Below the pieces are notes generated by a model that was not told the origin of the DNA, searched no databases, and saw nothing but the letters and a program-made list of their open reading frames with translations. A stretch of 64,000 bases of DNA, from assembly GCA_024635585.1 (NCBI GenBank), contig JAGXIP010000009.1, positions 3,179 through 67,178 of the forward strand, read 5' to 3'. Position 1 is the first letter of the stretch, and every line of letters begins with the position of its first letter. This document shows positions 1,609 to 35,386 of this stretch, piece after piece. The position numbers and the translations under genes are program-made. The DNA comes from Saccharicrinis sp. (lineage in GTDB: Bacteria; Bacteroidota; Bacteroidia; Bacteroidales; Marinilabiliaceae).

Positions 1609-2985
1609 TTAAATAAAATAACTCAAACCCAAGGCGGCCGCCAAGCCAACAATGGCAACAATACATTCCATAACCGTCCAAATAGCAAAAGTTTGTTTAA
1701 TGGTAACGTTGTAATACTCTTTGAACATCCAAAAACCAATGTCGTTGAAATGCGAAAACATTAGGCTTCCGGATCCTGTTGCCAAAACCATTAATTCGGG
1801 ACTTACATTGCTTACCGATAAAATGGGCAACATAATTCCGGCAGCAGTCATTGTGGCTACAGTGGCTGAGCCAATGGCTAAACGAATGACAGCCGCTACA
1901 CACCAGCCTAAAATCAAAGGATTAAAATCTAATCCACCCGCAATTTCTTTAATGTATTCAGCAACTCCGCTATCGGTTAGCACTTGTTTAAACGCACCAC
2001 CTGCAGCAATAATCATTACAATCATTGCAATACTACTTACCGCTTTTCCCATGCTTTTCATCAGGTCGTCCATTTTGCGGCCTTGCTTTATTCCAAGTAA
2101 ATACAAACCTGCAAAAACCGACATCAACAGTGCTATATTAGCATCGCTCAGAAATTTGAATATTTCGATTAGCGTTGTAAGTATTCTAGCAATTGTTGGA
2201 TTGTTAACCGACGCCGAAAAAAATGTGGAATAATCAATATCTTTCCCAAAAACCAAATCAATGCTTGCACCAAAAAGCATCAGTATTACTGGCGTGAGCA
2301 TAACTAATACACTTTTTGTCATTCCGGGCAATTCTTCTTTTGCAAACTCCTTACCTTCAAAAAGTTCTGCTGGTGGTTGTACATCAATTTTTTTAAAGAA
2401 TTTAGAAAGTAAAATACCCGCGATTAAACAGGCCGGAATAACAGGCAACAAACCATACATAAGTACCTGGTTAATATCGGCGCCATAAACAAACGAAACA
2501 TAGGTGGGTGCCGGGTGCGGTGGCAAATAGGCATGAGCGATGGAAAGTGTGGCAGAAAGTGGAATACCAAGATACATTAAAGGCAGCTTGGTGGTTCTTG
2601 CAAAGGTGTAAATAAGGGGTATTAACACCAAAAAACTGGCATTGTACATCATGGGTAACCCCACCAAAAAACCAACTACCAAAATAATATATTGAATATT
2701 TTTTAATCCAAATTTTTCAGTAAGCCGGTGAGTAAGTGTGTGGGCAGCGCCACTGTCTTCAATTAATTTGCCGAGCATTGCACCAAACACCAGAATCAAA
2801 ATTATATTACCCATGGTATCGCCGATTCCTTGCAGAATGGAATCCAAAATGGTGATAATCCCCATTTTATTTAATACGCCAACAAAAAAGGCCGTCATTA
2901 ATAATGAAAAGAAAGCATCAAACTTAAACTTTAACATCAACACTAATAAAAGTGCTATACCAATAAACACAAACAATAAGGGCAT
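1609..2985 (-). CDS. gntP: GntP-family sugar-acid:H+ symporter
   Basis: Polytopic membrane protein with GAMLGKLIEDSGAA, LPPHPAP, RLAIGSATVA and SHFNDIGFWMFKEY motifs. Confidence 0.9.
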   Translation of the reverse strand: MPLLFVFIGIALLLVLMLKFKFDAFFSLLMTAFFVGVLNKMGIITILDSILQGIGDTMGNIILILVFGAMLGKLIEDSGAAHTLTHRLTEKFGLKNIQYIILVVGFLVGLPMMYNASFLVLIPLIYTFARTTKLPLMYLGIPLSATLSIAHAYLPPHPAPTYVSFVYGADINQVLMYGLLPVIPACLIAGILLSKFFKKIDVQPPAELFEGKEFAKEELPGMTKSVLVMLTPVILMLFGASIDLVFGKDIDYSTFFSASVNNPTIARILTTLIEIFKFLSDANIALLMSVFAGLYLLGIKQGRKMDDLMKSMGKAVSSIAMIVMIIAAGGAFKQVLTDSGVAEYIKEIAGGLDFNPLILGWCVAAVIRLAIGSATVATMTAAGIMLPILSVSNVSPELMVLATGSGSLMFSHFNDIGFWMFKEYYNVTIKQTFAIWTVMECIVAIVGLAAALGLSYFI

Positions 2986-3070
2986 AATCGAATTGTTATT
3001 TAAGAATTGTAAACATAGCTATATTATAAAATCTGATTCGTAATAAAACTCACATTTCATCAACTTTAAA

Positions 3071-3087
3071 TCGGGAACGGTTTCGGA
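3071..3087. promoter_or_regulatory. Candidate LacI-family operator in the gntP / GH63-like divergent region
   Basis: TCGGGAACGGTTTCGGA, pseudo-palindrome with central CG; similar site at 46594-46610. Confidence 0.45.
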
Positions 3088-3139
3088 GATACCTTTGTAA
3101 TCAGGCTTAATTAGTAAAAATTTAAAAAGCAATTATAGG

Positions 3140-3147
3140 TATCTTTG
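3140..3147 (+). promoter_or_regulatory. Bacteroidota sigma-A -7 element (TAnnTTTG)
   Basis: TATCTTTG followed by CA, ~105 nt upstream of the ATG at 3254. Confidence 0.55.
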
Positions 3148-3253
3148 CAACAGAAATGACACCATTTTAAACACAAACTCAAGTACAACAAAACCTGAGC
3201 AAACAACAAATATACACTGCTAGGGCAAATGTTAATAATTTAATAAAATAACG

Positions 3254-4597
3254 ATGCGAAACTTTAGCTTAATAATATCAATACTAATAAGCCAAATAAT
3301 TTATAGCCAGAACTATACGCCGAATGAGGTAGAGAAATATAAACAAATATGCCGAAAGTATATTGCTAAGGATTACAAAGGTATGTTTAAAGAACCTAAA
3401 GGTGTTTTAACTTACCCATACATAACACCTGGTAGTAATGAGTATGCCACACAATTATGGGATTGGGATTCTTGGCTTACCAGTGTAGCATTGGAACAGA
3501 TTGTTAAAGACAATGGTACTGAGAAGGAAAGAATAGAAGCAGTAAAATACCAGCAGGGATGTGTGCTGAACTTTCTAAACTATCAACACAACGGATGGAT
3601 TCCCATAATGATTTCGCATAACTCTCCGCCCCTGCGCGAGTTTATGCCCGAAAACCCATACGTTGTTAACAAACATAAACCCATGCTGGCGCAACAAGCC
3701 GCTTTTATTATCCAAAACCACAATGGCGATGCGTCGTGGTTATTACCTAACTTTGCAGGATTGCAATATTTTGTAAACCATTACATTAACCATCAGAAAC
3801 ATAGGATTACAGGGCTTTATTTTTGGTTTGATGACGTGGCTATAGGCGTAGATAATGACCCTGCCACTTTTTACAGACCTGAAAAGAGTTCGGCTAATAT
3901 TTTTTTGAATTGCTTAATGTACAAAGAGCTGACTGCTATGGAATATCTATGCGAAAAAATGGATATGCACGAAATTGGCATCTTCTATAAAAAAGAAGCA
4001 GAGGCATTAAAAAGCGCCATTCGAGAGCATTGCTGGGATGAGTGGACAGGCTATTATTACAGCGTGGATTTGAATTTGATGCCCATAAAAGTACCCCAGA
4101 AAGGTAAAACGCTTCATGCTGGTGCTCCACGATCCTACGACTGTTTGATTCAGCGAATTCATTCATGGACGGGATTTATGGCAATGTGGGCAGGCATCGC
4201 AACCGATGAACAAGCAGCACGTATGTTGGAGCATTTTAACGACTCTTCTACCCTCAATAGCAATTATGGCATTCGAACGCTATCAAAACTCGAAAAAATG
4301 TATGATGTTAGGGCTACTGGAAACCCCTCGTCATGGTTAGGACCCATTTGGGGGGTTTCAAATTACATCGTATTCCGAAGCCTTTTAAATTATGGATTTG
4401 AGGATGAAGCCAAAGAAATTGCAGAAAAAACAGTTATACTTTTTGGTAAAGATTTTGAAAAAAATGGCGCCCTGCACGAATATTATTTACCCGACTCCGG
4501 TACGCCTGTTCTTAATAAGGGATTCCAGAACTGGAACTATCTAGTCATGAATATGGCAGCATGGATGGATTCAAAACCAAGTGTTTCGGAGTGGTGA
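3254..4597 (+). CDS. GH63/MGH1-like (alpha/alpha)6 glycoside hydrolase, signal peptide
   Basis: QLWDWDSW, GVDNDP, SWLGPIW and LHEYY motifs of trehalase/mannosylglycerate-hydrolase-like enzymes. Confidence 0.75.
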   Translation: MRNFSLIISILISQIIYSQNYTPNEVEKYKQICRKYIAKDYKGMFKEPKGVLTYPYITPGSNEYATQLWDWDSWLTSVALEQIVKDNGTEKERIEAVKYQQGCVLNFLNYQHNGWIPIMISHNSPPLREFMPENPYVVNKHKPMLAQQAAFIIQNHNGDASWLLPNFAGLQYFVNHYINHQKHRITGLYFWFDDVAIGVDNDPATFYRPEKSSANIFLNCLMYKELTAMEYLCEKMDMHEIGIFYKKEAEALKSAIREHCWDEWTGYYYSVDLNLMPIKVPQKGKTLHAGAPRSYDCLIQRIHSWTGFMAMWAGIATDEQAARMLEHFNDSSTLNSNYGIRTLSKLEKMYDVRATGNPSSWLGPIWGVSNYIVFRSLLNYGFEDEAKEIAEKTVILFGKDFEKNGALHEYYLPDSGTPVLNKGFQNWNYLVMNMAAWMDSKPSVSEW

Positions 4598-10934: not shown

Positions 10935-13900
10935 TTATTTGTTCACTACTTTTTTGGTAATCACCTTGTTCCCGGAAACCAATCTAACAACATACATTCC
11001 TTTTAACCTATTACTTATATCTTCCGTATGGCACTTCTCATTAATCTTTTTATTTAAAATTAATGAACCCGAAAGACTAAATAAATTTAATTGGTAATCT
11101 ACAGCATTTTCAACAGATAACACTCCGTTATTGATCCAAACCTGTATCTCCGATTGTTCGGCTAAACTTGTGCTCATCATTTCCAAAGTTGAATTCTTAA
11201 GAGATTCACCATTAGTTAAAACTACATCATCCACAAAGCCAACTCCCTGAGTCCGATTCGTAATAAATACCTGCAACCATGTAGTATTTGCAGGAATCAC
11301 TATCTCAGCATTTAATTGCTCGTAAGTGGTTCCTGTAAACGACAATGTTTGAATAGTTGTACTACCATTTTTAATAGCCACATCAACTCGGTTTCCTGCA
11401 GATAAGACTTTTCCCCAGGCACTAAAAGAATAGGTTTCTCCCACTTCGTATCCTAGCACATTTTGTTGTACCCATGACCAACTGGTGGAACCAACACGTA
11501 AAGCTTTGCTTCCGCTTTGCACCTCATTGGTTACTACCACAACGTCTCCTTTAGTTACAGTCCACGATTGCAAACTGCTTTCAAATCCGGGATTAAGAAT
11601 TAGGTTTTGCGATGGCGTACCTCCACCTCCTGAAGGTGATGTAACGGTTATTAAGCTGGTTGCCTTTTTGCTGCCGTCTTGAGTAGTAACAGTAACGGTA
11701 GCTGATCCAGCAGACAGGGCACTAACAAGACCATTGCTGCTAACGGTTGCCACTGCTGAATTACTTGAAGTCCAAGAAATATTTTTATTGGTGGCATTCG
11801 ATGGGGAAACTGCAGCCGACAATTGAGAAGTTTCGCCTTGTAATAATGCTACAGAAGAGAAACTAACAGACACCCCAGAAACAGGCACATCAGCCGCACC
11901 TTCGTACAAAGCAATATCGTCTACAAAACCACTTCCACTGCTTCCGTTTGTAACAAAAACCTGCACCCAAGTACTATTCAACGGAATTACGATTTCTGCA
12001 CTCAATTGCACGTAACTGGTACTGGTAAATGACAGTGTTTTAATGGTAGCACTTCCGTTTTTGATGGCAACATCTACTTTGTTGCCATTAGATGCAGCTT
12101 TTCCCCATGCGCTAAATGTATAGGTGCTGCCGGCTTTATACCCCTGCAGGTTTTGCTGTACCCACGACCAACTGGTGGAACCGATGCGCAAAGCTTTACT
12201 TCCACTATGCATGTCGGTGGTTGCAGCCACAGCATCTCCTTTGGATACAGTCCACGATTGCAAACTGCTTTCAAATCCCGGATTAAGAATCAGGTTTTGT
12301 GATGGAGTACCTCCACCTCCAGAAGAACTTGGTGTTATGGTTATTGAGCAAGTAGCCTTTTTGTTTCCATCCACAGTAGTTACTGTAATAATCGCACTTC
12401 CTTCGCCCACTGCACTAACAAGACCATTGCTAACGGTGGCAATTGAACTATTGCTGGTACTCCAACTCACTGCTTTATTGGTAGCATTGGTGGGACTCAC
12501 TGTTGCAGTCAACTGTTTTGTGCTATTGTTTACAATAGAAGCAGATGATGATGAAAGACTAACGCCTGTTACTGGAACATTGGTATTTTCTACATTGTAG
12601 ACATCCAGACGGTCAGCAACGATGGTATTGCCGGTTGAAGCGCTATTTTTTTGTCCGCTTACGGATACCCTGATGGTATGTTGCTCTTGTGTTAATACGG
12701 GACTTGTCCAAACAAGCTGCTCATTCTGGCGAACAGAGGCATAAAAATCCACTGATACAGCCGATCCCCCATTCAGAGATACATTGGCAATACCATGATG
12801 AGAAGCTAATGCGCCATACATTTTAACCTGGGTTCCAAAAAATGTATACTCCCAGTAAGAGCCCGTTACACTTGAATAGTGGTCATCATCCAGATACTTA
12901 CCAGTACCCGAAGATATACTCCAGCCACTAGAAAAAGTAAACTGGGTATCGTTGATTGATGTAACAGGATCCGATGACGTGGTTACAACATTTATAAGTG
13001 ATGACTTAGATGATACATTCCCTGCGGCATCGTAGGCACTCACACCAATAGAATAGGATGTATTTGGCAATAATCCTGTAACGGTTGTTGATGCAGAGGA
13101 TGATGTTTTCTTTTCTACCCCATTTACAAAAACCTTATAGCCGGCAACACCTACATTGTCAGAAGAGGCGTTCCATGCGAGCCCTACAAGGCTGGATTCC
13201 ACGCTTGTGGATCGTAGGCTTGTGGGTGTGGAAGGAGGGGTATTATCCACTACACCTGAAGAAGGTATATACACATCTTCCTGATTGATGGCATTTTTAT
13301 GGTTGTAAATAGCGGCCAGTGCAGCTTTTTTCACTGGATCGTTGAGTCTGGTGTCGATCCATTCTCCGTCCCATAGCATGAACCATCTGTATTCAGGACG
13401 GTTTTGCATCATCCAATCTACGCTTGGAAGAACCATATTTACATTGTAACCCTCTCCAATGGCCAAAGGTTTGCCTTGTGCTTTGGTTACCAGGTAATCG
13501 TAATCACCCTGGCTAAGGAAACCAGACTGATTCCAATAGTAATCGTCAATTCCCAACATATCAACATACGCAAGACCTGGGAACCATGGATCGGGCACCC
13601 TGTCGTTGTTCCAGCTGGTAAAATGATTGGGGCACCAGAACCAAATCAGGTTGTTAAGTCCATGGGTTTTAACCATGTAATTATAGGTATTGATCCACAA
13701 TGTCTTAAAATGCGTACGAGCAGCATCTCCTCCACCCCACCAAAACAGTCCGTTCATTTCGTGGTAGGGCCGCCAAACAACGGCGTATCCTTCATTCTGA
13801 AGTTCTTTCAGAAATGGGATAATCCTGTCCATGTTTCTTTTCCAATTGTTGTAAAGGGTGGTACCAGGAGTAACCAGCTGTTGGTATTCGTCCATGGTTA

Positions 13901-14399
13901 ACCTGGCTTGTTGAACATTGCTCCAACCATCATTCTCCTCTAGCTTAGGAGTCACCATGTGATAGGTTAAGGTGATTATGGAACCTGCGTCGGCTTGGGC
14001 TTTGGCAACCTGGATCATTCTTTGGCGAGCGTCCTGCAATTGCGCGATGGAATAATTGGGATCGGTGAAAGAAAAATCACTTCCCCACAAACCAGGGTAA
14101 TGGCCAAGATTGTTTTTAACCGAATTGGTAGCCCTTATGGCTAAATCATTTAAACTCCATGTTCTTGAGTAGTTATGTTGTCCCGTCATCAAACCCTGAG
14201 TCTTCAGGTTATAGATGTAACGATAAACATCTTTCGCCTTCTGGGTGGCGTTGGGATTAACTAGCTCCGGAGCTTGAGCGTGAGCCTGAAACATGAATAG
14301 CAACAAGCCCATGATCAGCGTCAATCGCAAAGTAAGATACATTCTTTTCATTTTGTAGATTTTTTTACTGTTTACAATAATTATTAAACTACACACCAA
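10935..14399 (-). CDS. Multimodular GH26 beta-mannanase: GH26-Fn3-beta-sandwich-(Big_2-CBM4/9/16-like)x2-T9SS CTD; likely start 14351
   Basis: WRPYHEMNG acid/base, LAIGEG nucleophile, WFMLW; DNTPPSTP Fn3; two VPVxGVS...NLILNPGFE repeats; KGMYVVRL...KKVVNK CTD. Confidence 0.9.
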   Translation of the reverse strand: MVCSLIIIVNSKKIYKMKRMYLTLRLTLIMGLLLFMFQAHAQAPELVNPNATQKAKDVYRYIYNLKTQGLMTGQHNYSRTWSLNDLAIRATNSVKNNLGHYPGLWGSDFSFTDPNYSIAQLQDARQRMIQVAKAQADAGSIITLTYHMVTPKLEENDGWSNVQQARLTMDEYQQLVTPGTTLYNNWKRNMDRIIPFLKELQNEGYAVVWRPYHEMNGLFWWGGGDAARTHFKTLWINTYNYMVKTHGLNNLIWFWCPNHFTSWNNDRVPDPWFPGLAYVDMLGIDDYYWNQSGFLSQGDYDYLVTKAQGKPLAIGEGYNVNMVLPSVDWMMQNRPEYRWFMLWDGEWIDTRLNDPVKKAALAAIYNHKNAINQEDVYIPSSGVVDNTPPSTPTSLRSTSVESSLVGLAWNASSDNVGVAGYKVFVNGVEKKTSSSASTTVTGLLPNTSYSIGVSAYDAAGNVSSKSSLINVVTTSSDPVTSINDTQFTFSSGWSISSGTGKYLDDDHYSSVTGSYWEYTFFGTQVKMYGALASHHGIANVSLNGGSAVSVDFYASVRQNEQLVWTSPVLTQEQHTIRVSVSGQKNSASTGNTIVADRLDVYNVENTNVPVTGVSLSSSSASIVNNSTKQLTATVSPTNATNKAVSWSTSNSSIATVSNGLVSAVGEGSAIITVTTVDGNKKATCSITITPSSSGGGGTPSQNLILNPGFESSLQSWTVSKGDAVAATTDMHSGSKALRIGSTSWSWVQQNLQGYKAGSTYTFSAWGKAASNGNKVDVAIKNGSATIKTLSFTSTSYVQLSAEIVIPLNSTWVQVFVTNGSSGSGFVDDIALYEGAADVPVSGVSVSFSSVALLQGETSQLSAAVSPSNATNKNISWTSSNSAVATVSSNGLVSALSAGSATVTVTTQDGSKKATSLITVTSPSGGGGTPSQNLILNPGFESSLQSWTVTKGDVVVVTNEVQSGSKALRVGSTSWSWVQQNVLGYEVGETYSFSAWGKVLSAGNRVDVAIKNGSTTIQTLSFTGTTYEQLNAEIVIPANTTWLQVFITNRTQGVGFVDDVVLTNGESLKNSTLEMMSTSLAEQSEIQVWINNGVLSVENAVDYQLNLFSLSGSLILNKKINEKCHTEDISNRLKGMYVVRLVSGNKVITKKVVNK
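11205..12585 (-). repeat. Intragenic tandem repeat, ~690-bp period (Big_2 + CBM module x2)
   Basis: CACGATTGCAAACTGCTTTCAAATCC recurs at ~11563 and ~12253; protein repeat GGGGTPSQNLILNPGFESSLQSWTV. Confidence 0.85.
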
Positions 14400-14718: not shown

Positions 14719-16815
14719 TTAATTAATAATCTTTGAGGAATATAATTTACCCTTGCGAACAACATAAACGATGTACATTCCCTTAGGAAGGTTAGATATA
14801 TTAAGGACTTCGGAATTACTTTTTAAAATGACATTTAAAACACTTGATCCAGTTAAATTTAAAAGAGATAACTTGCCATCGGCAGCATTGGTAATATGAA
14901 GAGAATTATTACCCCAGGCTTTAACACTCAAAATTTCATTATCTGAAAGAGAAGTTGAAACACTCTTGGTCAACACAAAATTATCTGCGTAAGCAAAATT
15001 ATCACCCTGCACATTTTCAATAAATACTTCCACGGAAGTATTGGCTGCACCCATTGTAAAGTCAATGGATAAGGGTGTCCATTCATCCTGAACCAAACTT
15101 GCAGTTCCTGTTGCATCAAACACATGAGCCTCAGCTAATTCGTCGCCACCATAATTGCGCACGCCGGCACGTACTTCTTCAACAGTAGTGCTTGTATTAT
15201 TTCTTAGCACACCCGTCAATTGATAATTAGCGCCAGCCGTTAACCCATTAACAACCTGTATTCCACCAAATAAATCATCAACTTTATAAGCAAAGTGATT
15301 GGCTCCGGAATAAGGAAAAAAACTGTATGTCCTTAATTGATTTGCATCCCCACTCCAGCCGGTCAATCCATCTTCAAAATCGCCATTAACCAATAAATTG
15401 GTACCGTCTCCTGGCTCGGGATCTGGATCCGTTCCAGCTTCTAGCGTTGTAACCACTAAAGGCGTGCTTTCAACAGATCGGTTCATATAATGGTCTCTGC
15501 CCTTTACAGTAATAGAATATTCAGTTTGTGGATTTAATCCAGTGATTGTGGTGCTATTATTAAAGATGAATTTACTAAAATCACCATCCACAAAAACCTC
15601 ATATCCAGAAACACCGTTATCATCGGTAGATGTATTCCATTGCAATTTAACTTGGCTGGATTCCACACTAGTGGTTTGCAGATTTACAGGAATAGAAGGA
15701 GGAGTTAGATCCTCTACATTTGCAGGCGGAATATACACAACATCCTGATTGATTGCATTTCCATGATTGTAAATTTGGGACAATGCTGCTTTTTTTTCCG
15801 AGTCGTTCAACCTATCGTCAATCCATTCGCCATCCCATAACATGAACCATCGGTATTCGGGACGGTGTTCCTTCATCCATTCCACACTTGGAATCTCCAT
15901 GTTGACATTGAAACCTTCGCCAATGGCCAATGGTTTACCTTCAGCTTTATTAACCAGGTAATCGTAATCACCTTGACTAAGGAAACCAGGCTGATTCCAA
16001 AAATAATCATCTATACCTAATACGTCAACATACTGAAGACCCGGGAACCATGGATCGGGAACCCTATCGTTGTTCCAACTAGTAAAATGATTTGGACTCC
16101 AAAACCATATCAAATTGTTTAAGCCATTATCGTTAACCATATAATTATAGGTATTGATCCATAATTGCGTAAAATGAGTCTTTGCGGCATCTCCTCCGCC
16201 CCACCAGAACAGTCCGTTCATTTCGTGAAAAGGGCGCCAAACAACGGCATAATTTTCATCCTGCAACTCTTGCAGAAAAGGGATAATCCTATCTAAATTT
16301 CTTTTCCAATTATTATAAAGGGTTGTACCAGGCGTAACTAAATCCTCGTATTCGCTCATGGTCAACCTAGCTTGTTGAACATTGCTCCAGCCCTGATTCT
16401 CTTCAAGTTTAGGAGTCACCATGTGATAAGTTAAGGTAATAATAGAACCTGCATCGGCTTGTGCTTTGGCCACGTCAATCATTCTTTGTCGGGTATCCTG
16501 CAATTGCGCAATGGTATATCCAGGATCTGTATAAGAAAAGTCGCTTCCCCATAAACCCGGGTAATGTCCAATAATGGTATTAACAGAGTTAGTAGCACGA
16601 ATTCCTGTATTACTTCCATTCCAAGTTTTGGCGTAATTGTGTTGCCCTGTCATCAAACCTTGATACTTTAGGTTATAGATGTACCTGTATACATCTTTTG
16701 CCTTTTGTGTAGCATTGGGATTAACTAGCTCTGGCGCCTGAGCGCGAGCCTGAAATATGAATAGAGACAGTACCATGATGAGCGTTAATCGCGAAACAGG
16801 ATGTATATTAATCAT
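14719..16815 (-). CDS. GH26 beta-mannanase: GH26-Fn3-CBM(4/9/16-like)-T9SS CTD
   Basis: WRPFHEMNG, LAIGEG; catalytic domain closely paralogous to 10935-14399; NLLVNGDFEDG module; KGMYIV...SKIIN CTD. Confidence 0.9.
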   Translation of the reverse strand: MINIHPVSRLTLIMVLSLFIFQARAQAPELVNPNATQKAKDVYRYIYNLKYQGLMTGQHNYAKTWNGSNTGIRATNSVNTIIGHYPGLWGSDFSYTDPGYTIAQLQDTRQRMIDVAKAQADAGSIITLTYHMVTPKLEENQGWSNVQQARLTMSEYEDLVTPGTTLYNNWKRNLDRIIPFLQELQDENYAVVWRPFHEMNGLFWWGGGDAAKTHFTQLWINTYNYMVNDNGLNNLIWFWSPNHFTSWNNDRVPDPWFPGLQYVDVLGIDDYFWNQPGFLSQGDYDYLVNKAEGKPLAIGEGFNVNMEIPSVEWMKEHRPEYRWFMLWDGEWIDDRLNDSEKKAALSQIYNHGNAINQDVVYIPPANVEDLTPPSIPVNLQTTSVESSQVKLQWNTSTDDNGVSGYEVFVDGDFSKFIFNNSTTITGLNPQTEYSITVKGRDHYMNRSVESTPLVVTTLEAGTDPDPEPGDGTNLLVNGDFEDGLTGWSGDANQLRTYSFFPYSGANHFAYKVDDLFGGIQVVNGLTAGANYQLTGVLRNNTSTTVEEVRAGVRNYGGDELAEAHVFDATGTASLVQDEWTPLSIDFTMGAANTSVEVFIENVQGDNFAYADNFVLTKSVSTSLSDNEILSVKAWGNNSLHITNAADGKLSLLNLTGSSVLNVILKSNSEVLNISNLPKGMYIVYVVRKGKLYSSKIIN

Positions 16816-17067: not shown

Positions 17068-17832
17068 TTAATTGATGATTTTTGCGGAATACATTTTGCC
17101 TTTTTGTAAAACACAAACAATGTACATTCCTTTAGGAAGGCTAGATAAATTAATGACTTCGGAATTACTTTGCACAATAGTGTTGAGGTTGCTCGAACCT
17201 GCAAGATTTAATATAGAAAGTTGTCCTCCGGCCGCATTCTTGATATTAAGAGAACCATTGTTAACCCATGCTACAACACTCAATATCTTGTTGTCTGCGA
17301 GCGAAGTTGAAACACTCTTCGTTAAAATAAAATTATCTGCATATGCAAAATTATCACCCTGCACATTTTCAATAAATACTTCCACAGAAGTATTGGCTGC
17401 CCCCATTGTAAAGTCAATGGAGAAAGGTGTCCATTCATCCTGAACCAAACTTGCGGTTCCAGTTGCATCAAACACATGATTTTCAGCTAATTCATCGCCA
17501 CCATAATTGCGCACACCAGCTCGAACTTCTTCAATAGTAGTACTTGTATTGTTTCTTAGCACACCCGACAATTGATAATTAGCACCAGCCGTTAACCCAT
17601 TAACAACCTGTGTTCCACCAAATAAATCATCTACTTTATATGCAAAGTGTTTGAGACCAGAATAAGGAAAAAAATCGTACGTTCTTATTTGAGCTGCATC
17701 CCCAGTCCAACCGGTCAATCCATCTTCAAAATCGCCATTCACGAGCAAATTAACAGATCCATCCTGTGCAGAAACATGATTTGCCAACATTATTGTGAAG
17801 GCAATTAAAATAATGGTAAATCTTCTTTTCAT
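17068..17832 (-). CDS. Non-catalytic signal peptide-CBM-T9SS CTD protein
   Basis: NLLVNGDFEDGLTGW...FAYADNF module almost identical to the CBM of 14719-16815; no catalytic domain. Confidence 0.85.
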   Translation of the reverse strand: MKRRFTIILIAFTIMLANHVSAQDGSVNLLVNGDFEDGLTGWTGDAAQIRTYDFFPYSGLKHFAYKVDDLFGGTQVVNGLTAGANYQLSGVLRNNTSTTIEEVRAGVRNYGGDELAENHVFDATGTASLVQDEWTPFSIDFTMGAANTSVEVFIENVQGDNFAYADNFILTKSVSTSLADNKILSVVAWVNNGSLNIKNAAGGQLSILNLAGSSNLNTIVQSNSEVINLSSLPKGMYIVCVLQKGKMYSAKIIN

Positions 17833-17961: not shown

Positions 17962-18522
17962 TGTTGCAAATAGTAAATTATTGTAGTCAAACTTTAAAGC
18001 AAGTGCAAGATATTATTCGACAGGCATTGTGTTACTTGTCATTTAAACCAAAATTCCATGTCAAACCATTCAAGTGCTAAAAAGCCATATAGAATGTAGG
18101 CTACAATGGGTATTTTTTTCTCTTACAATCACAATAGTTCACAATTTAAAACCAGAAAACCCTTTTGAGTAGATGCAAACTACAACCGATGAGCACCTAA
18201 AAGCAAAAAAACGCCTGAGGTGATTACCCCGACGTTTTTTATTAAAATAATTCGATAAATCAATTGCAGATAAAATTGATTATTAATCCGCTTCAATGTA
18301 AAAAACATGGTCGCGATAAGTGCAGACATCTGGATAACCATTGGTTCCAGGCATTAAACTGGTCCGTTCCTTGAAGTCTGATGATAAAAAAGCACTCTTC
18401 ACAGCAAGTTCATTTGCGGAATCGTTAAGCAATTTGGAGGGATCAAATGATACCGGTGGAAACTTACCATTCCCTTCGCGCCGAATACCATGACCTCCGG
18501 CATAACAACCGACCGACCAATT
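17962..18522. repeat. 561-bp direct repeat, copy 1
   Basis: Aligns by eye without net indel to 20716-21276 (offset 2754), roughly 90% identical by inspection. Confidence 0.92.
18205..18240. terminator. Bidirectional intrinsic terminator inside the repeat (second copy ~20959-20994)
   Basis: AAAAAAACG...CGTTTTTT stem flanked by A and T runs after the stop at 18283. Confidence 0.65.
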
Positions 18523-18650
18523 GACACGTGTAAAACTGCGTTTATTGCCTATTGCTTCAATCATTCTCAAAAAAGCATACCTATTTAAAAACTTGGTTTT
18601 CGGGCACAATGAATTGCAAAAATCGACCTTTTAGCAAAGTGTGATCTGGA
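18283..18650 (-). pseudogene. Truncated, frameshifted paralogue of the 346-aa lipoprotein (3' part only)
   Basis: ORF 18283-18609 matches the C-terminus of 21037-22077; an upstream frame gives PDHTLLKGRFLQFIVPE vs PDHPDLKGKFLQYIVPE; no 5' half. Confidence 0.85.
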
Positions 18651-18737: not shown

Positions 18738-20525
18738 TTATCGTTTAATGATTTTTTCGTTGAAGATGGCTTGCCCGTTTGAATCCAAAATCCTTAGAAT
18801 GTATAATCCATTGCCTAGGTGACCGGTATTCAGTGTGACACTATTCAAAGCTTTTTCGTAAGATTGGTGCACTTTTCGTCCATCCATGGTATATAGCTCA
18901 ACTAAAAGATCGAAGGAGTTGTTCCTGGCTTCTATGGTGATGTGATTTCTGAAAGGATTAGGATAAACGGAAAGCGACGGTTCCGGAGCTTCGAAGAGCT
19001 TATCCACAGAAGTGGCGCTTCCCATAATGGTGGCCATTCTGGGCTCAGACCTGTTGTGGAAGAAATCTCGGGCACGGACTTCGATAATGGTATCGCCGGT
19101 AAATGTAAATTCGTCTGATAAAAGGAAGGTGTCTTTTGTAAATGCCACACGCTGTCCTTCAATATATAAATCATAGCCGGTGATCATGCGATCATCAAAG
19201 GATGCATGCCAGTTGACAAGTAATTGTTCACCTGCCCTATAGATTGCAGCCTCTGTAACTGTGGTAGGGACCTGTAAGTCAGGAGATTCATCCATATAGG
19301 CATTAAAAAGGGCTCTTCCGGTGTGGTAAGAGGTTTTCCAAATGTGGCCTTTGCTCGAAGTCGCTGCGGATGCTCTGGTGTCTAAGCCCGTGGAATACCA
19401 GCCTCCATACACATCGTCTATCGCGTATTCTTTAATGTATGCCCATTGTTTGTTGAATAAATCCTGGTATTGTGTTTCTTCCGGATATAATTTTTTCATG
19501 AGCAACAGGGCGTTTAATCCCTCAGCTGTTGTCCACCAGTTTTTTTCAGAATCAATTATGTAATATCCAGGATCGTTGAATTTACCAGCGTTATATATTC
19601 CGCCTTTGTCGTTGTCATAGCCATGCATGAGGGTGATGCCAACAATTTCTTTGATAAAACCCATTATGTCCTCAGGGATATCCTCCTCCATTAACTGATA
19701 AGCATCATGAACGAGGTAGCCGACTTGGACGTTATGACCGAATGATACCTCGTTAAATTTATTGGTTGATGGGGTGAGATCACGCTTAAAGTAGGTATAA
19801 AGGAATCCTTCCGGACCCCTTAATCTTTGGTCCAGCAGATAGATAATGTTATGAATGGCATCATACAGCTGTTGGTTCGGCCAGACATCATACAATGTTG
19901 CGTAGGCTTCTAGCAGGTGCATCACATTATTGTGCTCCTTATCGTCTGATAGATCAGGCACCCCACTCCTTGAGGTATACTGAAAATAGCTGTTGTATTC
20001 TTTGTCGCGACCGTGGTCTTCCACCCAGAGAAAAGTTTTAATGGCCAGATCCAGTGCTTCCTCATCACCCGTGAGAAGGTAGTACATACTTAAGCCATAA
20101 ATGGCGAAAGCTTCACCATAGATCCTCTTCTTGCTTTCCAACTGAGTATTGCCTGTCCGGTCGAGGTGATAAAAGAAGCCGCCATGTTGTTGATCCCACA
20201 TCTTATCCTTGATGAAATTGAAACCATGTGTGGCTAGGTCGGTATACATCTTTTCTTCAGGAAAGAGCAGTGCCGCACGTGAAGTAACCCACAAGTGCCT
20301 GCTTTGCGAAACAATCATTTTGGTATGTTGACCGGAAGGGGTCCAGTCGTATTTGAAATCGGAGCGGTATCCGCCATAAACGGCATCTTTGGCCAGAGGA
20401 TACCAGGCTTTTAAAGTTTTGTCTACAAGGTAATGCTCAAAACTTTGAGCATTTAAGTTTCCAAAAAGCAAACTCAGAAGGCTGATAAGGATCCATCTTT
20501 TCAGATGAGTGTAAGTTTTTATCAT
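18738..20525 (-). CDS. AGE-family (cellobiose/mannobiose 2-epimerase-like) enzyme with signal peptide, Fn3-like domain and T9SS CTD
   Basis: SQSRHLW, YGEAFAIYGLS, NNVMHLLEAY, SFGH, KNWWTTAE and WKTSYHTGR motifs; SLSVYPNPFRN...GLYILRI...KIIKR CTD. Confidence 0.88.
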   Translation of the reverse strand: MIKTYTHLKRWILISLLSLLFGNLNAQSFEHYLVDKTLKAWYPLAKDAVYGGYRSDFKYDWTPSGQHTKMIVSQSRHLWVTSRAALLFPEEKMYTDLATHGFNFIKDKMWDQQHGGFFYHLDRTGNTQLESKKRIYGEAFAIYGLSMYYLLTGDEEALDLAIKTFLWVEDHGRDKEYNSYFQYTSRSGVPDLSDDKEHNNVMHLLEAYATLYDVWPNQQLYDAIHNIIYLLDQRLRGPEGFLYTYFKRDLTPSTNKFNEVSFGHNVQVGYLVHDAYQLMEEDIPEDIMGFIKEIVGITLMHGYDNDKGGIYNAGKFNDPGYYIIDSEKNWWTTAEGLNALLLMKKLYPEETQYQDLFNKQWAYIKEYAIDDVYGGWYSTGLDTRASAATSSKGHIWKTSYHTGRALFNAYMDESPDLQVPTTVTEAAIYRAGEQLLVNWHASFDDRMITGYDLYIEGQRVAFTKDTFLLSDEFTFTGDTIIEVRARDFFHNRSEPRMATIMGSATSVDKLFEAPEPSLSVYPNPFRNHITIEARNNSFDLLVELYTMDGRKVHQSYEKALNSVTLNTGHLGNGLYILRILDSNGQAIFNEKIIKR

Positions 20526-20651: not shown

Positions 20652-20714
20652 TTATTCCCAACCTGGGTTTTGTATCAGCTTTTTGTTCAATTCAAGCTGG
20701 GTTACTGAGAAGGT
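20652..20714 (-). pseudogene. 3'-terminal remnant of a susD/ragB gene
   Basis: Hand translation TFSVTQLELNKKLIQNPGWE*; the L.QNPGW* ending is the typical SusD C-terminus; abuts the repeat boundary at 20716. Confidence 0.7.
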
Positions 20715-20715
20715 C

Positions 20716-21276
20716 TGTTGCAAATAGTAAATTATTGTAGCCATACTTTAAAGCAAGTGCAAGGTATTATTCAATAGGCATTGTGTTACTTGTCAATTAA
20801 ACCAAAATTCCATGTCAAACCATTCAAAGGCTAGAAAGCCATATAGAATGTAGGCTACAACGGGTATTTTTTCCGCTTACTATCACAATAGTCCACAATT
20901 TAAAACCAGAAAGCACCTTTGCGTAGATGCAAACTACAACCGATGAGCACCTAAAAGCAAAAAAACGCCTGAGGTGATTACCCCGACGTTTTTTATTAAA
21001 ATAATTCGATAAATCAATTGCAGATAAAATTGATTATTAATCCGTTTCAATGTAAAAAACATGGTCGCGATAAGTGCAGACATCAGGATAACCATTGGTT
21101 CCAGGCATTAAGTTAATCCGTTCCTTGAAGTCTGATGATAAAAAAGCACTCTTCACAGCAAGCTCATTTGCAGAATCGCTAAGCAATTTGGAGGGATCGA
21201 AGGGTACCGGGGGAAACTGACCATTCCCTTCGCGCCGAATACCATGACCTCCGGCATAACTACCTACCGACCAATT
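20716..21276. repeat. 561-bp direct repeat, copy 2
   Basis: See 17962-18522. Confidence 0.92.
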
Positions 21277-22077
21277 TGCCAGAGTGAAGCCTCTATCCTC
21301 TCCTATCTCATCAATCATAAGCATAAAAGCATAGCGCTTGCCGGGTTCAAGAATGATATCTGAGGTCTCAGGAACAATATACTGCAAGAATTTACCTTTT
21401 AAATCGGGATGGTCCGGCGATACCGCCACCGTATCGTTATCAAAACCAAAATCCTTTTTAAGAGGAAACTGGTATCCGCTGAATACTTCTATAGATTTAA
21501 ATTCCAATCCTTCATAATAATCATCCCGATGGTGGGCAATTGCCTCACTGTATCGGTTATGCGGAAATCCATGCAAGGCACTCATAGTACTATCGCTGCC
21601 ATTATTATTAAGCGTGCCGTTGCCAATTACCTTCAAAAACTGCAATGATATATTTTGTCCGTACATGCCTTCACGCACCACATTGGAACCAAAACCTAAG
21701 CGAACGGTAACGGATTTCAGTTGTTTAGCACTCAACGAGTCTGGATAAGTAAAAATTTGTCCCAGATCACGATTTCGCTTAAGATAAGCCACCTCGTGCC
21801 CCTCCTTTGTAAAATAACCAAAACCACCCGTCTCTTCAACGGATTCGCCTGACCATTTAATGGAAACACTGGAATCATTAGCCACTGAGGTGTTACCTTC
21901 ACGACTAAACCCCTCATTAAACACCACAACATTTCCCATCCGTACAGTATCGGATAACATCAGGATTTGATCAGATGAAGACGACACAGATGGGCTACAT
22001 CCCCCCAAGACCAATTCACCAATTAAAAAAACAAATACTGCTTTTTTAAGATTATTTAAAGCTAAAAAACCTATCAT
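21037..22077 (-). CDS. Hypothetical lipoprotein of unknown function
   Basis: Lipobox VLGGC; no family recognised; conserved GGHGIRREG and TNGYPDVCTYRD; decayed paralogue nearby supports coding status. Confidence 0.75.
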   Translation of the reverse strand: MIGFLALNNLKKAVFVFLIGELVLGGCSPSVSSSSDQILMLSDTVRMGNVVVFNEGFSREGNTSVANDSSVSIKWSGESVEETGGFGYFTKEGHEVAYLKRNRDLGQIFTYPDSLSAKQLKSVTVRLGFGSNVVREGMYGQNISLQFLKVIGNGTLNNNGSDSTMSALHGFPHNRYSEAIAHHRDDYYEGLEFKSIEVFSGYQFPLKKDFGFDNDTVAVSPDHPDLKGKFLQYIVPETSDIILEPGKRYAFMLMIDEIGEDRGFTLANWSVGSYAGGHGIRREGNGQFPPVPFDPSKLLSDSANELAVKSAFLSSDFKERINLMPGTNGYPDVCTYRDHVFYIETD

Positions 22078-33766: not shown

Positions 33767-35386
33767 CTACTGTTTAATGATTTTGGTTAATCCGCTATTG
33801 CCATCGGCAAAATTTACTTTTACCAAATACACACCAGCGTTAAGACTTGAAACATCAATACTTGAACCATTCAATACATTAACTTGTAATACTTTTTGTC
33901 CAGAAAGATTGAAAACCTCCACAGACTGAAGTGAAGTTGCAGACTGAATATTCAATACGTTATTAACCGGGTTGGGCCAAATAGAAATATCTGAGTTTGC
34001 AGCATCAATTCTTTTCACAGAAGTAGGAGGAGTATATCCTTCCAAAAGTAATCTACCTGTAGAGAAGGTACTTCTCCAAGCCAAATTGTCGCGGTTGTTC
34101 CAGGCAAAATAATTTGCATCTAAACCTGCTAATTTAAAACCCAAATCAAAAAATAATGATTTCCTCTCTTTAAATGCAGCAACCATGGCAGGATCTGTTG
34201 AGGCTACACTCCAAGGAATTTTTGCTTCTAGAATATAACCTTCAAATTCATCAAAAGATTGCGCGGCTCTCCAAATCCATTCAACACCTCTATTGGTATA
34301 GGCAGTAAGCTCCTCGGAACCAGCTGCACCAAATTTCAACTTTGAAAATAAAAAACCATTCTCATTAGACGCACCATCATCGTAACTAAGGTGAGCATCA
34401 GTTGGTCTTACCCCCACAGTAACGGTAACTTCATCAACACCTACTGTCTTTGCTGCATCAGGCACAACAACTTGAGAATAAAGATAAAGATTAACTTCAT
34501 CATAGGCACTCCAATATTTAGCAGAAACTCCTTCTATGCCAACAACACCATTGGTCCAGTTATTAACATCATGGCCCTCGCCTGTGTAAATACCTTCTAA
34601 ATTGTCAGCATCCAATTCAAGAGTAGCAGTAGTGCTAAGAATATTTACATCTTTTCTTTCCGCTAACGTTAAAACACCTAACTTCATACTTGATTCCCAT
34701 GCGGTATTGTCATCGTTTGACCATGCCACATAATTTGCTGCTGCATTAAATTTATAAGCCACATCGAAATAAATAGTTCCTTGACCTGAACGATAGTCTG
34801 CTTTGAAATTATCGATTAAGGTTTGATTGGTTGAAATATCATTCCAAGCAACACGTGCTTCAACATTGTAACCGCTAAGTATCACAGGAAAGCCTTCAAC
34901 TTCAACTTCTACGTCTGCAACCTCTTCATAAATCCACTTAACATTTCTTCTAACTTTTGCCACACCTGCAACAGCAGCGCTACTTCCTGCACCACCAAAG
35001 GTGATCTTTGAAAAAAGGAAGCCATTGTCATTCGGCTCACCTAAGTCAAAACTATAAGCAGCTCTATCTGGATCTAAGCTAATGGTCATACTAATTTCAT
35101 CCTGTCCTGTTACAGTCGTTGTTTCAAGACGAAGCTCAGAATAAATAAAGAGCGAATCGGCAGTGTAGGAAACATCGAATTTAGCAACTACATTTTCCAC
35201 CACATCACCAGTCCAAACAGCAATATCCTTTGTATATGCTCTGGTGTAAACATTAACATCTTTTGTAGCATCTAAAGTTCCACCTGAAAACACTTGTGGC
35301 ATTACAGCTGTTTTTGGAACAAAATCCTGTGCAATAGCGGTCAATGCAACCATTGCCGCAAATAGCATTGTAAACATCTTTTTCAT
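33767..35386 (-). CDS. Non-catalytic protein with two CBM9/DOMON-like repeats and T9SS CTD
   Basis: Duplicated NENGFLFSKxxFG...YxxEAxxxW...FDxxxK...NYxAW.N.D..AW; ISIWPNPV...GVYLVKV CTD. Confidence 0.7.
   Translation of the reverse strand: MKKMFTMLFAAMVALTAIAQDFVPKTAVMPQVFSGGTLDATKDVNVYTRAYTKDIAVWTGDVVENVVAKFDVSYTADSLFIYSELRLETTTVTGQDEISMTISLDPDRAAYSFDLGEPNDNGFLFSKITFGGAGSSAAVAGVAKVRRNVKWIYEEVADVEVEVEGFPVILSGYNVEARVAWNDISTNQTLIDNFKADYRSGQGTIYFDVAYKFNAAANYVAWSNDDNTAWESSMKLGVLTLAERKDVNILSTTATLELDADNLEGIYTGEGHDVNNWTNGVVGIEGVSAKYWSAYDEVNLYLYSQVVVPDAAKTVGVDEVTVTVGVRPTDAHLSYDDGASNENGFLFSKLKFGAAGSEELTAYTNRGVEWIWRAAQSFDEFEGYILEAKIPWSVASTDPAMVAAFKERKSLFFDLGFKLAGLDANYFAWNNRDNLAWRSTFSTGRLLLEGYTPPTSVKRIDAANSDISIWPNPVNNVLNIQSATSLQSVEVFNLSGQKVLQVNVLNGSSIDVSSLNAGVYLVKVNFADGNSGLTKIIKQ

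What the first reader, a model, noticed from the sequence alone, without database searches (positions are those of the whole stretch)
18738..20525. T9SS-secreted cellobiose/mannobiose 2-epimerase-like enzyme
Known: characterised CE/mannobiose epimerases act on imported disaccharides, upstream of GH130. Seen: a full AGE barrel with all three His motifs (MHLLEA, SFGH, YH), plus signal peptide, Fn3-like domain and a clear T9SS CTD. Altered neighbouring residues (GHNVQ vs GHDIE, WWTTAE vs WWVQAE, WKTSYH vs WKCPYH) hint at shifted specificity. Inferred: extracellular epimerisation of reducing ends, perhaps to relieve product inhibition, suit SusD/GH3, or make oligosaccharides less usable by competitors. 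I know of no described example but could not search.
Basis: partly seen in the sequence, partly recalled or inferred. Interest (0 to 1): 0.82.

Follow-up and report, generated by a model that had tools for sequence, protein, structure and literature searches.

The report
Secreted, active-site-altered cellobiose-epimerase-like protein
A sugar-epimerase-like enzyme that normally works inside cells is here tagged for export and has lost one otherwise invariant active-site residue, so it may modify mannan fragments outside the cell, but nothing has been tested and similar export-tagged relatives are common in databases.

Summary
ORF 18738-20525 (minus strand, 595 aa) has a signal peptide, an AGE-superfamily barrel closest to cellobiose/mannose 2-epimerases, a small beta-sandwich and a T9SS type A C-terminal domain. 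The genome has the T9SS translocon SprA and about 85 other tagged ORFs.

- The canonical cytoplasmic symporter-CE-GH130 operon sits on another contig, so this gene is an extra paralogue.
- It is a recent insertion. It lies between 618-bp direct repeats, has a GC3 of 0.47 against 0.29-0.39 for its neighbours, and is absent from 22 congeners. Four of its five orthologues with readable flanks lie outside glycan loci.
- It belongs to a large, uncharacterised, mostly signal-peptide-bearing sister clade of CE. That clade is tied to mannan by neighbouring GH9 and GH26 genes and by three epimerase-GH26 fusions.
- Only the eight T9SS-tagged members replace the invariant Glu of GHxxE with Gln. They also shorten two loops, one of them the pocket-entrance loop, yet dN/dS is 0.08.

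A separate family of at least 661 protein clusters, with HxxK, already combines an AGE barrel with a T9SS tail, so the architecture is not unique.

The best reading is an extracellular enzyme acting on reducing ends with altered properties. Retained activity is unproven.

The parts
18738..20525 (-). Whole gene, 595 aa: signal peptide, AGE (CE-like) barrel, beta-sandwich and T9SS CTD
   Evidence: ORF; Pfam and NCBIfam; AF2 model
20448..20525 (-). Signal peptide, residues 1-26. Predicted cleavage is after NLNA, leaving Gln27 at the new N-terminus.
   Evidence: Hydrophobic core score 2.92. Gln27 is invariant in the 7 aligned orthologues. This is heuristic; no dedicated predictor was available.
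19290..20444 (-). (alpha/alpha)6 AGE-superfamily barrel, residues about 28-412
   Evidence: PF07221 at E 2e-32; PDB CE hits; Foldseek target-normalised TM 0.86-0.90 to CE and ME structures; dN/dS 0.08
19725..19736 (-). H264-N265-V266-Q267. This is the catalytic His motif in which the family-invariant Glu (RmCE E262) is Gln and the Asp (D260) is Asn.
   Evidence: Translation. Q is found in 8 of 8 CTD-bearing members, and E in about 204 of 204 other homologues.
19323..19325 (-). His401, equivalent to the second catalytic His (RmCE H390)
   Evidence: Alignment; invariant
19917..19919 (-). His203, equivalent to the third His (RmCE H200) of the C2-OH-binding Tyr/Asn/His set
   Evidence: Alignment; residue role from PMC6333288
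19020..19274 (-). Small beta-sandwich (Fn3/Ig-like), residues about 418-502. It is homologous to the tail of AGE+Fn3 proteins of Mucilaginibacter, Nibrella and Pontibacter.
   Evidence: Strands in the AF2 model; matches to loci extend to residues about 493-501; weak Foldseek hits to Fn3 modules; no Pfam hit
18741..18977 (-). T9SS type A C-terminal sorting domain, residues about 517-595 (motifs YPNP, GLYILR, KIIKR)
   Evidence: PF18962 at 44.9 bits against a cut-off of 27; TIGR04183 at 40.1 bits against 23
17962..18579 (.). Left copy of a 618-bp direct repeat flanking the gene. It carries a pseudogene copy (ORF 18283-18609) of the 3' end of the 346-aa lipoprotein gene and a copy of its terminator-like hairpin.
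   Evidence: (91% identity, ungapped)
20716..21333 (.). Right copy of the 618-bp direct repeat: the 3' end of the intact 346-aa gene plus its downstream spacer
20652..20715 (-). Short open tail ...TFSVTQLELNKKLIQNPGWE*, between the repeat junction and the gene. It may be the remnant of a susD-like 3' end carried in with the cassette.
   Evidence: Read. It is too short for any statistical test. The lead came from note e1-5235136.

Best explanation
The gene encodes a T9SS-secreted, horizontally acquired member of a large, uncharacterised and mostly exported sister clade of cellobiose/mannobiose 2-epimerases.

Shown:
- Sec signal peptide, CE-like (alpha/alpha)6 barrel, small beta-sandwich and type A CTD.
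- A T9SS in the genome.
- Retention of Arg76, Tyr136, Asn199, His203, His264, Glu335, Trp330/331/396 and His401.
- Strong purifying selection on the barrel.

Inferred:
- After export, the barrel binds the reducing-end residue of beta-1,4-linked manno- or gluco-oligosaccharides released by the neighbouring secreted GH26 mannanases.
- It opens the ring and moves the C2 proton through a cis-enediol, using the His264/His401 pair.
- This interconverts Man and Glc at the reducing end, possibly with ketose as a side product.

The T9SS subclade has remodelled the site. The Glu one helical turn from His264 is Gln, the adjacent Asp is Asn, and Gln333 is Thr. Two loops are 10-16 residues shorter than in the sister clade, one of them the CE pocket-entrance loop. 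I therefore expect a different pH-rate profile, a more open cleft that takes longer or branched chains, or a shifted ratio of epimer to ketose. I do not expect textbook CE behaviour.
For: - Architecture.
- Catalytic and C2-OH-binding residues map one-to-one onto RmCE and are invariant across 53 aligned sequences.
- The C2-OH triad distinguishes CE and YihS from GlcNAc epimerases (PMC6333288).
- The two-His enediol mechanism is established for CE and YihS (PMC5726027; PMC8006165).
- T9SS is present: SprA_N at 598 bits and 91 CTD matches.
- dN/dS of the barrel is 0.08 against the 87% and 76% orthologues.
- Links of the exported sister clade to extracytoplasmic mannan breakdown:
  - 74 of the 120 closest homologues have a signal peptide or lipobox.
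  - GH9 lies within 8 kb in 18 of 79 loci and GH26 in 13 of 79 (examples).
  - Three genomes fuse a signal-peptide-bearing clade member to a GH26 domain.
- In this window the gene lies among two GH26+CTD genes, CBM+CTD genes, GH2, GH3, GH5 and SusC/D.
- The 54% orthologue P0007 sits with two GH5+CTD genes, GH3, GH42, GH112 and an MFS transporter.
- The CE loop equivalent to D174-N199 sits at the pocket entrance and governs substrate recognition and isomerisation (PMC12938175). Here it is 26 aa, against 36-42 in most of the sister clade (full range 27-42) and 35 in CE.
Against: - The Glu of GHxxE is Gln in all 8 T9SS-tagged members, whereas every other homologue keeps Glu.
- This Glu lies 4.4 A from the substrate C2 in YihS (PMC6333288).
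- From my memory of Fujiwara et al. 2013 (FEBS Lett), which I could not retrieve, its Ala mutant inactivates Ruminococcus albus CE.
- The Trp aligned with RmCE W265 is Tyr.
- NCBIfam equivalog scores are far below cut-off: 161 bits against 800 for EpiA.
- Four of the five orthologues with readable flanks sit among housekeeping or toxin-antitoxin genes, not glycan loci. The mannan context is therefore weak evidence.
- The clade has a long stem branch, 1.46 substitutions per site, and 22 class-switch sites clustered around active-site motifs. Both fit a change of function.
- No canonical Bacteroidota -7 box lies upstream, and a terminator-like hairpin separates the gene from the upstream operon. 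Expression is unverified.
- No biochemical data exist for any member of this clade.
Confidence: 0.5

Rival explanations
1. The barrel has been repurposed. It is no longer an epimerase. It would be either a secreted protein that binds reducing ends (a lectin-like tether or cap for chain ends) or a catalyst of a different reaction. The Glu-to-Gln change would be the signature of that shift.
For: - E267Q is exclusive to the T9SS subclade and fixed in it.
- The independent and much larger T9SS-tagged AGE family has also lost this Glu: 120 of 120 members have GH[VI]LK.
- The signal-peptide-only relatives, including the GH26 fusions, keep HxxE.
- The subclade has a long stem branch and 22 class-switch sites near the active site.
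- Orthologues mostly lie outside glycan loci.
- Enzyme-free CBM+CTD proteins are already part of this PUL.
Against: - Every other catalytic and substrate-binding residue of CE, including both catalytic His, is invariant from 54% to 87% identity. A pure binding protein would not obviously need this.
- Gln can still accept or donate the hydrogen bond that Glu makes.
- dN/dS of 0.08 fits either an enzyme or a binding protein, so it does not discriminate.
Confidence: 0.3
2. It is an active 2-epimerase or isomerase, but for a substrate unrelated to beta-mannan. The substrate could be free monosaccharides, as for mannose 2-epimerase, or oligosaccharides from another glycan. Its position in this PUL would then be an accident of a recent insertion.
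For: - The top Foldseek hit is the Runella mannose/glucose 2-epimerase 8h1l.
- The gene is an insertion between 618-bp repeats with an outlying GC3.
- It is absent from 22 congeners.
- Orthologue contexts vary.
Against: - By sequence CE is closer than ME: 6e-46 against 1e-30.
- As I recall from Saburi et al. 2019 (not retrieved), ME specificity comes from longer loops that close the cleft. Here the loops are shorter.
- The sister clade is repeatedly linked to GH26 and GH9 and is fused to GH26.
- P0007 lies beside secreted GH5 enzymes.
Confidence: 0.15
3. It is an ordinary CE paralogue that is not truly secreted. The CTD would be non-functional or the gene silent, so the protein stays in the periplasm or is not made.
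For: - No recognisable promoter lies upstream, and a terminator-like hairpin does.
Against: - The CTD scores well above the curated cut-offs and is itself under purifying selection, with dN/dS 0.27-0.34.
- The full architecture is conserved in 8 sequences down to 54% identity.
- The genome has SprA and many other CTD cargo proteins.
Confidence: 0.05

Closest known systems
Cellobiose/mannobiose 2-epimerase (EC 5.1.3.11), for example Rhodothermus marinus RmCE (PDB 3wkf/3wkg/9l8i), Spirochaeta thermophila CE (5zig) and Ruminococcus albus CE (3vw5), plus the genome's own canonical copy on contig C77
   Same: - (alpha/alpha)6 barrel, with target-normalised TM 0.86-0.90.
- Same Arg, the Tyr/Asn/His triad for the C2-OH, two catalytic His, the WW..E motif and the stacking Trp.
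- No cofactor is needed, so the chemistry could work outside the cell.
   Different: - Only 24-28% identity.
- Signal peptide, beta-sandwich and T9SS CTD are added.
- Glu262 becomes Gln, Asp260 becomes Asn, Trp265 becomes Tyr and Gln324 becomes Thr.
- The pocket-entrance loop is 9 residues shorter.
- It is not next to GH130 and a symporter. That operon, with a 417-aa CE at 7e-117 to RmCE, is elsewhere in the genome.
Mannose (glucose) 2-epimerase of Runella slithyformis, Runsl_4512 (PDB 8h1k-8h1n)
   Same: It is the best Foldseek match (E 1e-26, target-normalised TM 0.86) and belongs to the same superfamily with the same catalytic His pair.
   Different: Sequence similarity is weaker than to CE: 1e-30 against 6e-46. 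It is a cytoplasmic protein with no added domains. The loops are shorter here.
Uncharacterised exported CE-like clade, annotated 'AGE family epimerase/isomerase' or 'mannobiose 2-epimerase'. Examples: Gillisia, Zunongwangia, Leeuwenhoekiella, Gracilimonas, Mucilaginibacter, Nibrella, Ignavibacteria, KSB1
   Same: - These are the nearest relatives, at 36-43% identity over the barrel.
- Most have a signal peptide or lipobox.
- Some carry the same beta-sandwich tail.
- They are linked to GH9 and GH26 genes and fused to GH26 in three genomes.
   Different: - They keep GH[DN]xE and the longer loops.
- They have no T9SS CTD.
- The T9SS subclade sits on a long stem branch inside this clade.
HxxK family of T9SS-tagged AGE-fold proteins, about 600 aa, from Ignavibacteria and other FCB-group genomes, annotated 'mannose/cellobiose epimerase-like protein'. 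Uncharacterised.
   Same: - Same architecture: signal peptide, AGE barrel, beta-sandwich and Por_Secre_tail.
- It has also lost the Glu of HxxE.
   Different: - Only about 25% identity to this protein, as distant as it is from CE.
- Lys stands in place of Gln.
- Trp396 is not conserved.
- It is far more abundant: at least 661 clusters against 8 sequences.
T9SS type A cargo glycoside hydrolases, such as the two GH26+CTD mannanases in this same locus
   Same: Sec signal peptide plus a C-terminal PF18962 domain, encoded in a SusC/D locus.
   Different: The cargo domain here is an isomerase/epimerase fold, not a hydrolase.

Membership tests
Cellobiose 2-epimerase (EC 5.1.3.11) | AGE-superfamily (alpha/alpha)6 barrel | tested here: met
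   PF07221 at E 2e-32. AF2 model plus Foldseek gives target-normalised TM 0.86-0.90 to CE structures.
Cellobiose 2-epimerase (EC 5.1.3.11) | Two catalytic His (RmCE H259 and H390) | tested here: met
   H264 and H401 align with them and are invariant.
Cellobiose 2-epimerase (EC 5.1.3.11) | C2-OH-binding Tyr124/Asn196/His200 and Arg66. These separate CE and YihS from GlcNAc 2-epimerases. | tested here: met
   Y136, N199, H203 and R76 are present. Residue roles are from PMC6333288.
Cellobiose 2-epimerase (EC 5.1.3.11) | Glu of the GHxxE motif (RmCE E262; RaCE E246, reported as essential according to my memory of Fujiwara et al. 2013) | tested here: not met
   The residue is Q267. Glu is present in about 204 of 204 other homologues.
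Cellobiose 2-epimerase (EC 5.1.3.11) | Score above the NCBIfam equivalog cut-off (NF041848 EpiA) | tested here: not met
   160.8 bits against a cut-off of 800. The canonical paralogue matches RmCE at 7e-117.
Cellobiose 2-epimerase (EC 5.1.3.11) | Cytoplasmic protein encoded with a GH130 phosphorylase and a sugar symporter | tested here: not met
   This protein has a signal peptide and a CTD. The symporter-CE-GH130 operon is on contig C77.
Cellobiose 2-epimerase (EC 5.1.3.11) | Epimerisation of the reducing-end Glc/Man of beta-1,4 disaccharides | not testable with these tools
   This needs an enzyme assay.
T9SS type A cargo | C-terminal sorting domain above the curated cut-off | tested here: met
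   PF18962 at 44.9 bits against 27; TIGR04183 at 40.1 bits against 23.
T9SS type A cargo | N-terminal Sec signal peptide | tested here: met
   Hydrophobic core, an Ala-X-Ala-like site and an invariant Gln at +1. This is heuristic only.
T9SS type A cargo | T9SS machinery encoded in the same genome | tested here: met
   SprA_N at 598.6 bits. There are 91 Por_Secre_tail matches, about 82 over cut-off. The GldM model TIGR03517 found nothing, but its controls were also silent.
T9SS type A cargo | T9SS-dependent appearance outside the cell | not testable with these tools
   This needs secretome work.
Exported CE-like clade (unnamed) | Groups with the clade to the exclusion of canonical CE and AGE | tested here: met
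   36-43% identity to the clade, against 28% to CE and 22% to AGE. The trees agree. The CTD subclade is monophyletic with SH-aLRT support of 100.
HxxK AGE-CTD family | GH[VI]LK motif and at least 50% identity among members | tested here: not met
   The motif here is GHNVQ. Identity to L108 is 24.8%.

The most novel reading that the evidence does not exclude
AGE-fold barrels exported by the T9SS may form a distinct functional class marked by loss of the HxxE glutamate. It is Gln in this CE-like subclade and Lys in the independent family of at least 661 clusters. On this reading they are not classical 2-epimerases. They would be extracellular proteins directed at glycan chain ends, either reducing-end lectins or caps, or catalysts of an undescribed reaction at the reducing end of polysaccharides. 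Their periplasmic, signal-peptide-only relatives, which keep HxxE and can be fused to GH26, would be the true exported epimerases.
Probability: 0.25. Interest if true: 0.8.

Novelty: new variant of a known kind. Interest (0 to 1): 0.5.

Why it matters
Current models of beta-mannan use in Bacteroidota and Firmicutes place 2-epimerisation strictly in the cytoplasm, in the order symporter, CE, GH130. An active secreted or periplasmic CE-like enzyme would add an extracytoplasmic step that changes the identity of the sugar. That would affect which oligosaccharides SusC/D systems and competing bacteria see.

It would also give a naturally secreted, cofactor-free epimerase scaffold for making epilactose, lactulose or mannose.

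The natural Glu-to-Gln variant, fixed under strong purifying selection, is a ready-made probe of what that conserved Glu does in the AGE superfamily.

The wider result may be more useful than this single gene. It comprises a large unstudied exported clade with GH26 fusions and a very large HxxK T9SS family. Together these define concrete targets for enzymology.

Tried and rejected
- **Conserved partner gene.** The CTD protein downstream of the 76% orthologue is unrelated to the CBM+CTD protein here. Rejected.
- **Conserved part of mannan PULs.** Rejected by the orthologue contexts and by absence from 22 same-genus genomes.
- **AGE+CTD architecture is rare.** I believed this. It was overturned by the phylum sample and the HxxK family, following note e1-703857.
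- **Published role of the GHxxE Glu in CE.** The RmCE paper PMC3916543 is not held. Keyword searches gave nothing useful. Only PMC6333288 gave a distance to C2.
- **Literature on secreted or T9SS-exported CE.** None found.
- **Promoter.** The sigma-70 scan was at chance level. No TAnnTTTG box lies on the minus strand between 17353 and 23755. Uninformative.
- **GldM (TIGR03517).** The search was silent in the genome and also in all controls, so I used SprA instead.
- **Specificity of the neighbouring GH9 and GH5 enzymes.** There were no PDB matches at 1e-15 or better.
- **Fn3 assignment.** There is no Pfam hit. The domain-only model has pLDDT 60.7 and gives only weak Foldseek matches.
- **Sister relationship to the AGE+Fn3 group.** It is neither recovered in the best tree nor rejected (AU p = 0.17).
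- **Active-site geometry.** Model coordinates could not be inspected, so the His264-Gln267 contact is inferred only from their i/i+3 spacing on a predicted helix.
Full report
**1. What is there**

The ORF at 18738-20525 on the minus strand encodes 595 aa.
- Pfam finds GlcNAc_2-epim (PF07221) at residues 52-402, E 2e-32, and Por_Secre_tail (PF18962) at 520-592, 44.9 bits against a cut-off of 27.
- NCBIfam finds TIGR04183 above its cut-off. The matches to the EpiA, AGE and mannose-isomerase equivalogs are all far below theirs; EpiA scores 161 bits against 800.
- Against PDB sequences the best hits are cellobiose 2-epimerases: 5zig at 6e-46 and RmCE 3wkf at 9e-38. The Runella mannose/glucose 2-epimerase follows at 1e-30 and GlcNAc 2-epimerases at about 1e-12.
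- An AF2 model built on 53 homologues has pLDDT 87.9. It shows an N-terminal helix (the signal peptide), a twelve-helix barrel at about 30-413, a seven-strand beta-sandwich at 424-500, a disordered linker at 503-515 and a beta-sandwich CTD at 517-594.
- The barrel superposes on RsME, StCE and RmCE with target-normalised TM 0.86-0.90.
- The middle domain is only weakly identifiable as Fn3-like.
- The genome encodes the T9SS translocon SprA at 598 bits and 91 Por_Secre_tail matches.

**2. Active-site audit**

The HMMER alignment to RmCE maps the residues as follows:

| This protein | RmCE |
|---|---|
| R76 | R66 |
| Y136 | Y124 |
| N199 | N196 |
| H203 | H200 |
| H264 | H259 |
| N265 | D260 |
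| Q267 | E262 |
| Y270 | W265 |
| W330/W331 | W321/W322 |
| T333 | Q324 |
| E335 | E326 |
| W396 | W385 |
| H401 | H390 |

- The Tyr/Asn/His set contacts the C2-OH in RmCE and is replaced by hydrophobic residues in GlcNAc epimerases (PMC6333288). The barrel is therefore of the unmodified-sugar type, like CE, ME and YihS.
- The two catalytic His that carry the enediol mechanism are present (PMC5726027; PMC8006165).
- The Glu of GHxxE is Gln. This Glu lies 4.4 A from the substrate C2 in YihS. As I recall from Fujiwara et al. 2013 (not retrievable), it is required in R. albus CE.
- In a 53-sequence alignment, and by motif search over 212 homologues, Gln occurs in all seven T9SS-tagged proteins plus the 87% orthologue L025. 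It occurs nowhere else; the rest have GH[DN]xE.

**3. Family placement**

A search of 5.8 billion proteins found only seven clusters with this architecture, at 54-76% identity. A scan of species genomes added an eighth from a Marinilabiliaceae MAG at 87%.

The next tier, at 36-43% identity, is a large group of proteins of about 450 aa.
- They are annotated 'AGE family epimerase/isomerase' and come from Bacteroidota, Balneolales, Ignavibacteria, KSB1 and Gemmatimonadota.
- 74 of the 120 best have a signal peptide or lipobox.
- A subset from Mucilaginibacter, Nibrella, Adhaeribacter and Pontibacter carries the same beta-sandwich tail without a CTD.

Trees put the T9SS subclade as a fully supported monophyletic group on a long stem (1.46 substitutions per site) inside this clade. 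Canonical CE and AGE lie outside it. A single origin of the Fn3-like tail is not rejected (AU p = 0.17).

Compared with the sister clade, the subclade has 22 fixed class-switch sites. They cluster at residues 197-202, 250, 258-259, 267-269, 316 and 333.

It also has two shortened loops:
- D174-N199 is 26 aa, against mostly 36-42 in the sister clade.
- G240-H264 is 25 aa, against 37 in the sister clade.

The first loop corresponds to the CE loop at the pocket entrance, which controls substrate recognition and isomerisation (PMC12938175).

The barrel is under strong purifying selection, with dN/dS 0.08. The tail domains give 0.15-0.34. This is a functional protein, not a decaying one.

**4. What the sister clade does**

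No member is characterised, but three lines of evidence tie it to extracytoplasmic breakdown of beta-mannan or glucomannan.
- In 79 loci, a well-conserved CelD_N+GH9 gene lies within 8 kb in 18, usually adjacent. GH26 lies within 8 kb in 13. In Gillisia the cluster is GH9-GH26-CE2-PMI. In Mucilaginibacter the gene follows GH9 directly.
- In a sample of 400 genomes from the phylum, three encode a signal-peptide-bearing clade member fused to a GH26 domain. Pfam gives PF07221 at 1.5e-38 plus GH26 at 9e-52. The barrel is 45-52% identical to exported members and has an intact GHDIE motif.
- In this window the gene lies in a SusC/D locus with two GH26+CTD enzymes, CBM4_9+CTD, CBM9+CTD, GH5, a GH74-like protein, two GH2, two GH3 and an HTCS regulator.

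**5. The local context is recent**

- The genome already has the textbook module on contig C77. It consists of an MFS symporter, a 417-aa CE without signal peptide (7e-117 to RmCE, with GHDIE, WWPQAE and WKCPYH) and GH130. A classical AGE sits on C231.
- None of 22 same-genus genomes has an orthologue of the secreted gene. Their best hits, at 27-33% identity, are canonical CEs.
- The gene is bracketed by 618-bp direct repeats (17962-18579 and 20716-21333, 91% identity, ungapped). Each repeat holds the 3' end of the neighbouring 346-aa lipoprotein gene and its terminator-like hairpin.
- GC3 is 0.47, against 0.29-0.39 in the neighbours.
- A short susD-like tail (...LIQNPGWE*) sits between the repeat junction and the gene.
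- Orthologue contexts differ:
  - The 87% copy lies between two oxidoreductase genes.
  - The 76% copy lies among housekeeping genes.
  - Two 73% copies lie beside ParDE toxin-antitoxin genes.
  - Only the 54% copy is in a glycan cluster (GH3, MFS, GH42, GH112 and two GH5+CTD).

**6. The architecture is not unique**

This turned up a separate family of about 600 aa with a signal peptide, AGE barrel, beta-sandwich and Por_Secre_tail. It was present in 9 of the 400 genomes.

It comprises at least 661 clusters in the protein collection. All 120 members examined have GH[VI]LK. It is only about 25% identical to this protein and to CE.

Two independent T9SS-tagged AGE lineages have therefore both lost the HxxE Glu, while the signal-peptide-only relatives keep it. 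I cannot explain this correlation. It is the basis of the most novel reading.

**7. Verdict**

The architecture and the likely export are solid. The functional reading is inference.

| Reading | Odds |
|---|---|
| Extracellular enzyme acting on reducing ends by the two-His enediol mechanism, with altered properties | about 0.5 |
| Repurposed binding protein or new activity | about 0.3 |
| Active epimerase or isomerase on a substrate unrelated to mannan | about 0.15 |
| Not truly secreted or not expressed | about 0.05 |

It is a new variant of a known kind. I could find no published account of it, but exported and T9SS-tagged relatives are abundant in databases.

Noticed in passing
window 17962-18579 and 20716-21333; ORF 18283-18609: A 618-bp direct repeat (91% identity, ungapped) brackets the epimerase-like gene. 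The left copy holds a truncated pseudogene of the C-terminal ~100 residues (83% identical) of the 346-aa lipoprotein gene.
   Followed up: yes
window 21037-22077 (-): A 346-aa predicted lipoprotein (lipobox LGGC) with no Pfam family, even at E 5. It has no homologue in 22 same-genus genomes and sits between GH2 and the epimerase-like gene.
   Followed up: partly
window 20652-20715 (-): A short open tail ending ...LELNKKLIQNPGWE*, which resembles a SusD C-terminus. It lies just inside the repeat junction and may be a fossil of the donor locus.
   Followed up: partly
L116, L117, L118 (G113:C3, G329:C27, G349:C13): Proteins of about 775 aa with a signal peptide that fuse a CE-like AGE barrel (GHD[IV]E intact) to a GH26 mannanase domain. 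They occur in three Bacteroidota-phylum genomes.
   Followed up: partly
L107-L115; P0213-P0332: A very large uncharacterised family (at least 661 clusters) with a signal peptide, AGE barrel, beta-sandwich and T9SS CTD. The motif GH[VI]LK is invariant in place of GHxxE.
   Followed up: partly
L014 7380-9860; L016 684-3188; 18 of loci L026-L104: A conserved CelD_N+GH9 protein of about 830 aa (52-77% identity across phyla) lies next to exported CE-like genes. It has no PDB relative at 1e-20.
   Followed up: partly
window 17068-17832, 14719-16815, 10935-14399 (-): The stand-alone CBM4_9+CTD protein is 84% identical to the C-terminal 229 residues of the 698-aa GH26. That enzyme's catalytic domain is 74% identical to the catalytic domain of the 1154-aa GH26. 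This indicates tandem duplication and domain shuffling.
   Followed up: partly
L002 (G000:C77), ORFs 2-1096, 1426-2679, 2704-3876: The canonical mannobiose pathway operon (GPH/MFS symporter, CE, GH130) is present elsewhere in the same genome.
   Followed up: yes
window 33767-35386 (-): A 539-aa T9SS cargo protein with a CBM9-like region and no catalytic domain, in the same PUL. From general knowledge, CBM9 modules are known to bind reducing ends.
   Followed up: no
L010 9579-9881; L013 6060-6605: Two 73%-identical orthologues of the secreted epimerase-like gene lie directly beside ParD/ParE toxin-antitoxin genes. This hints that the gene travels on mobile or unstable DNA.
   Followed up: no
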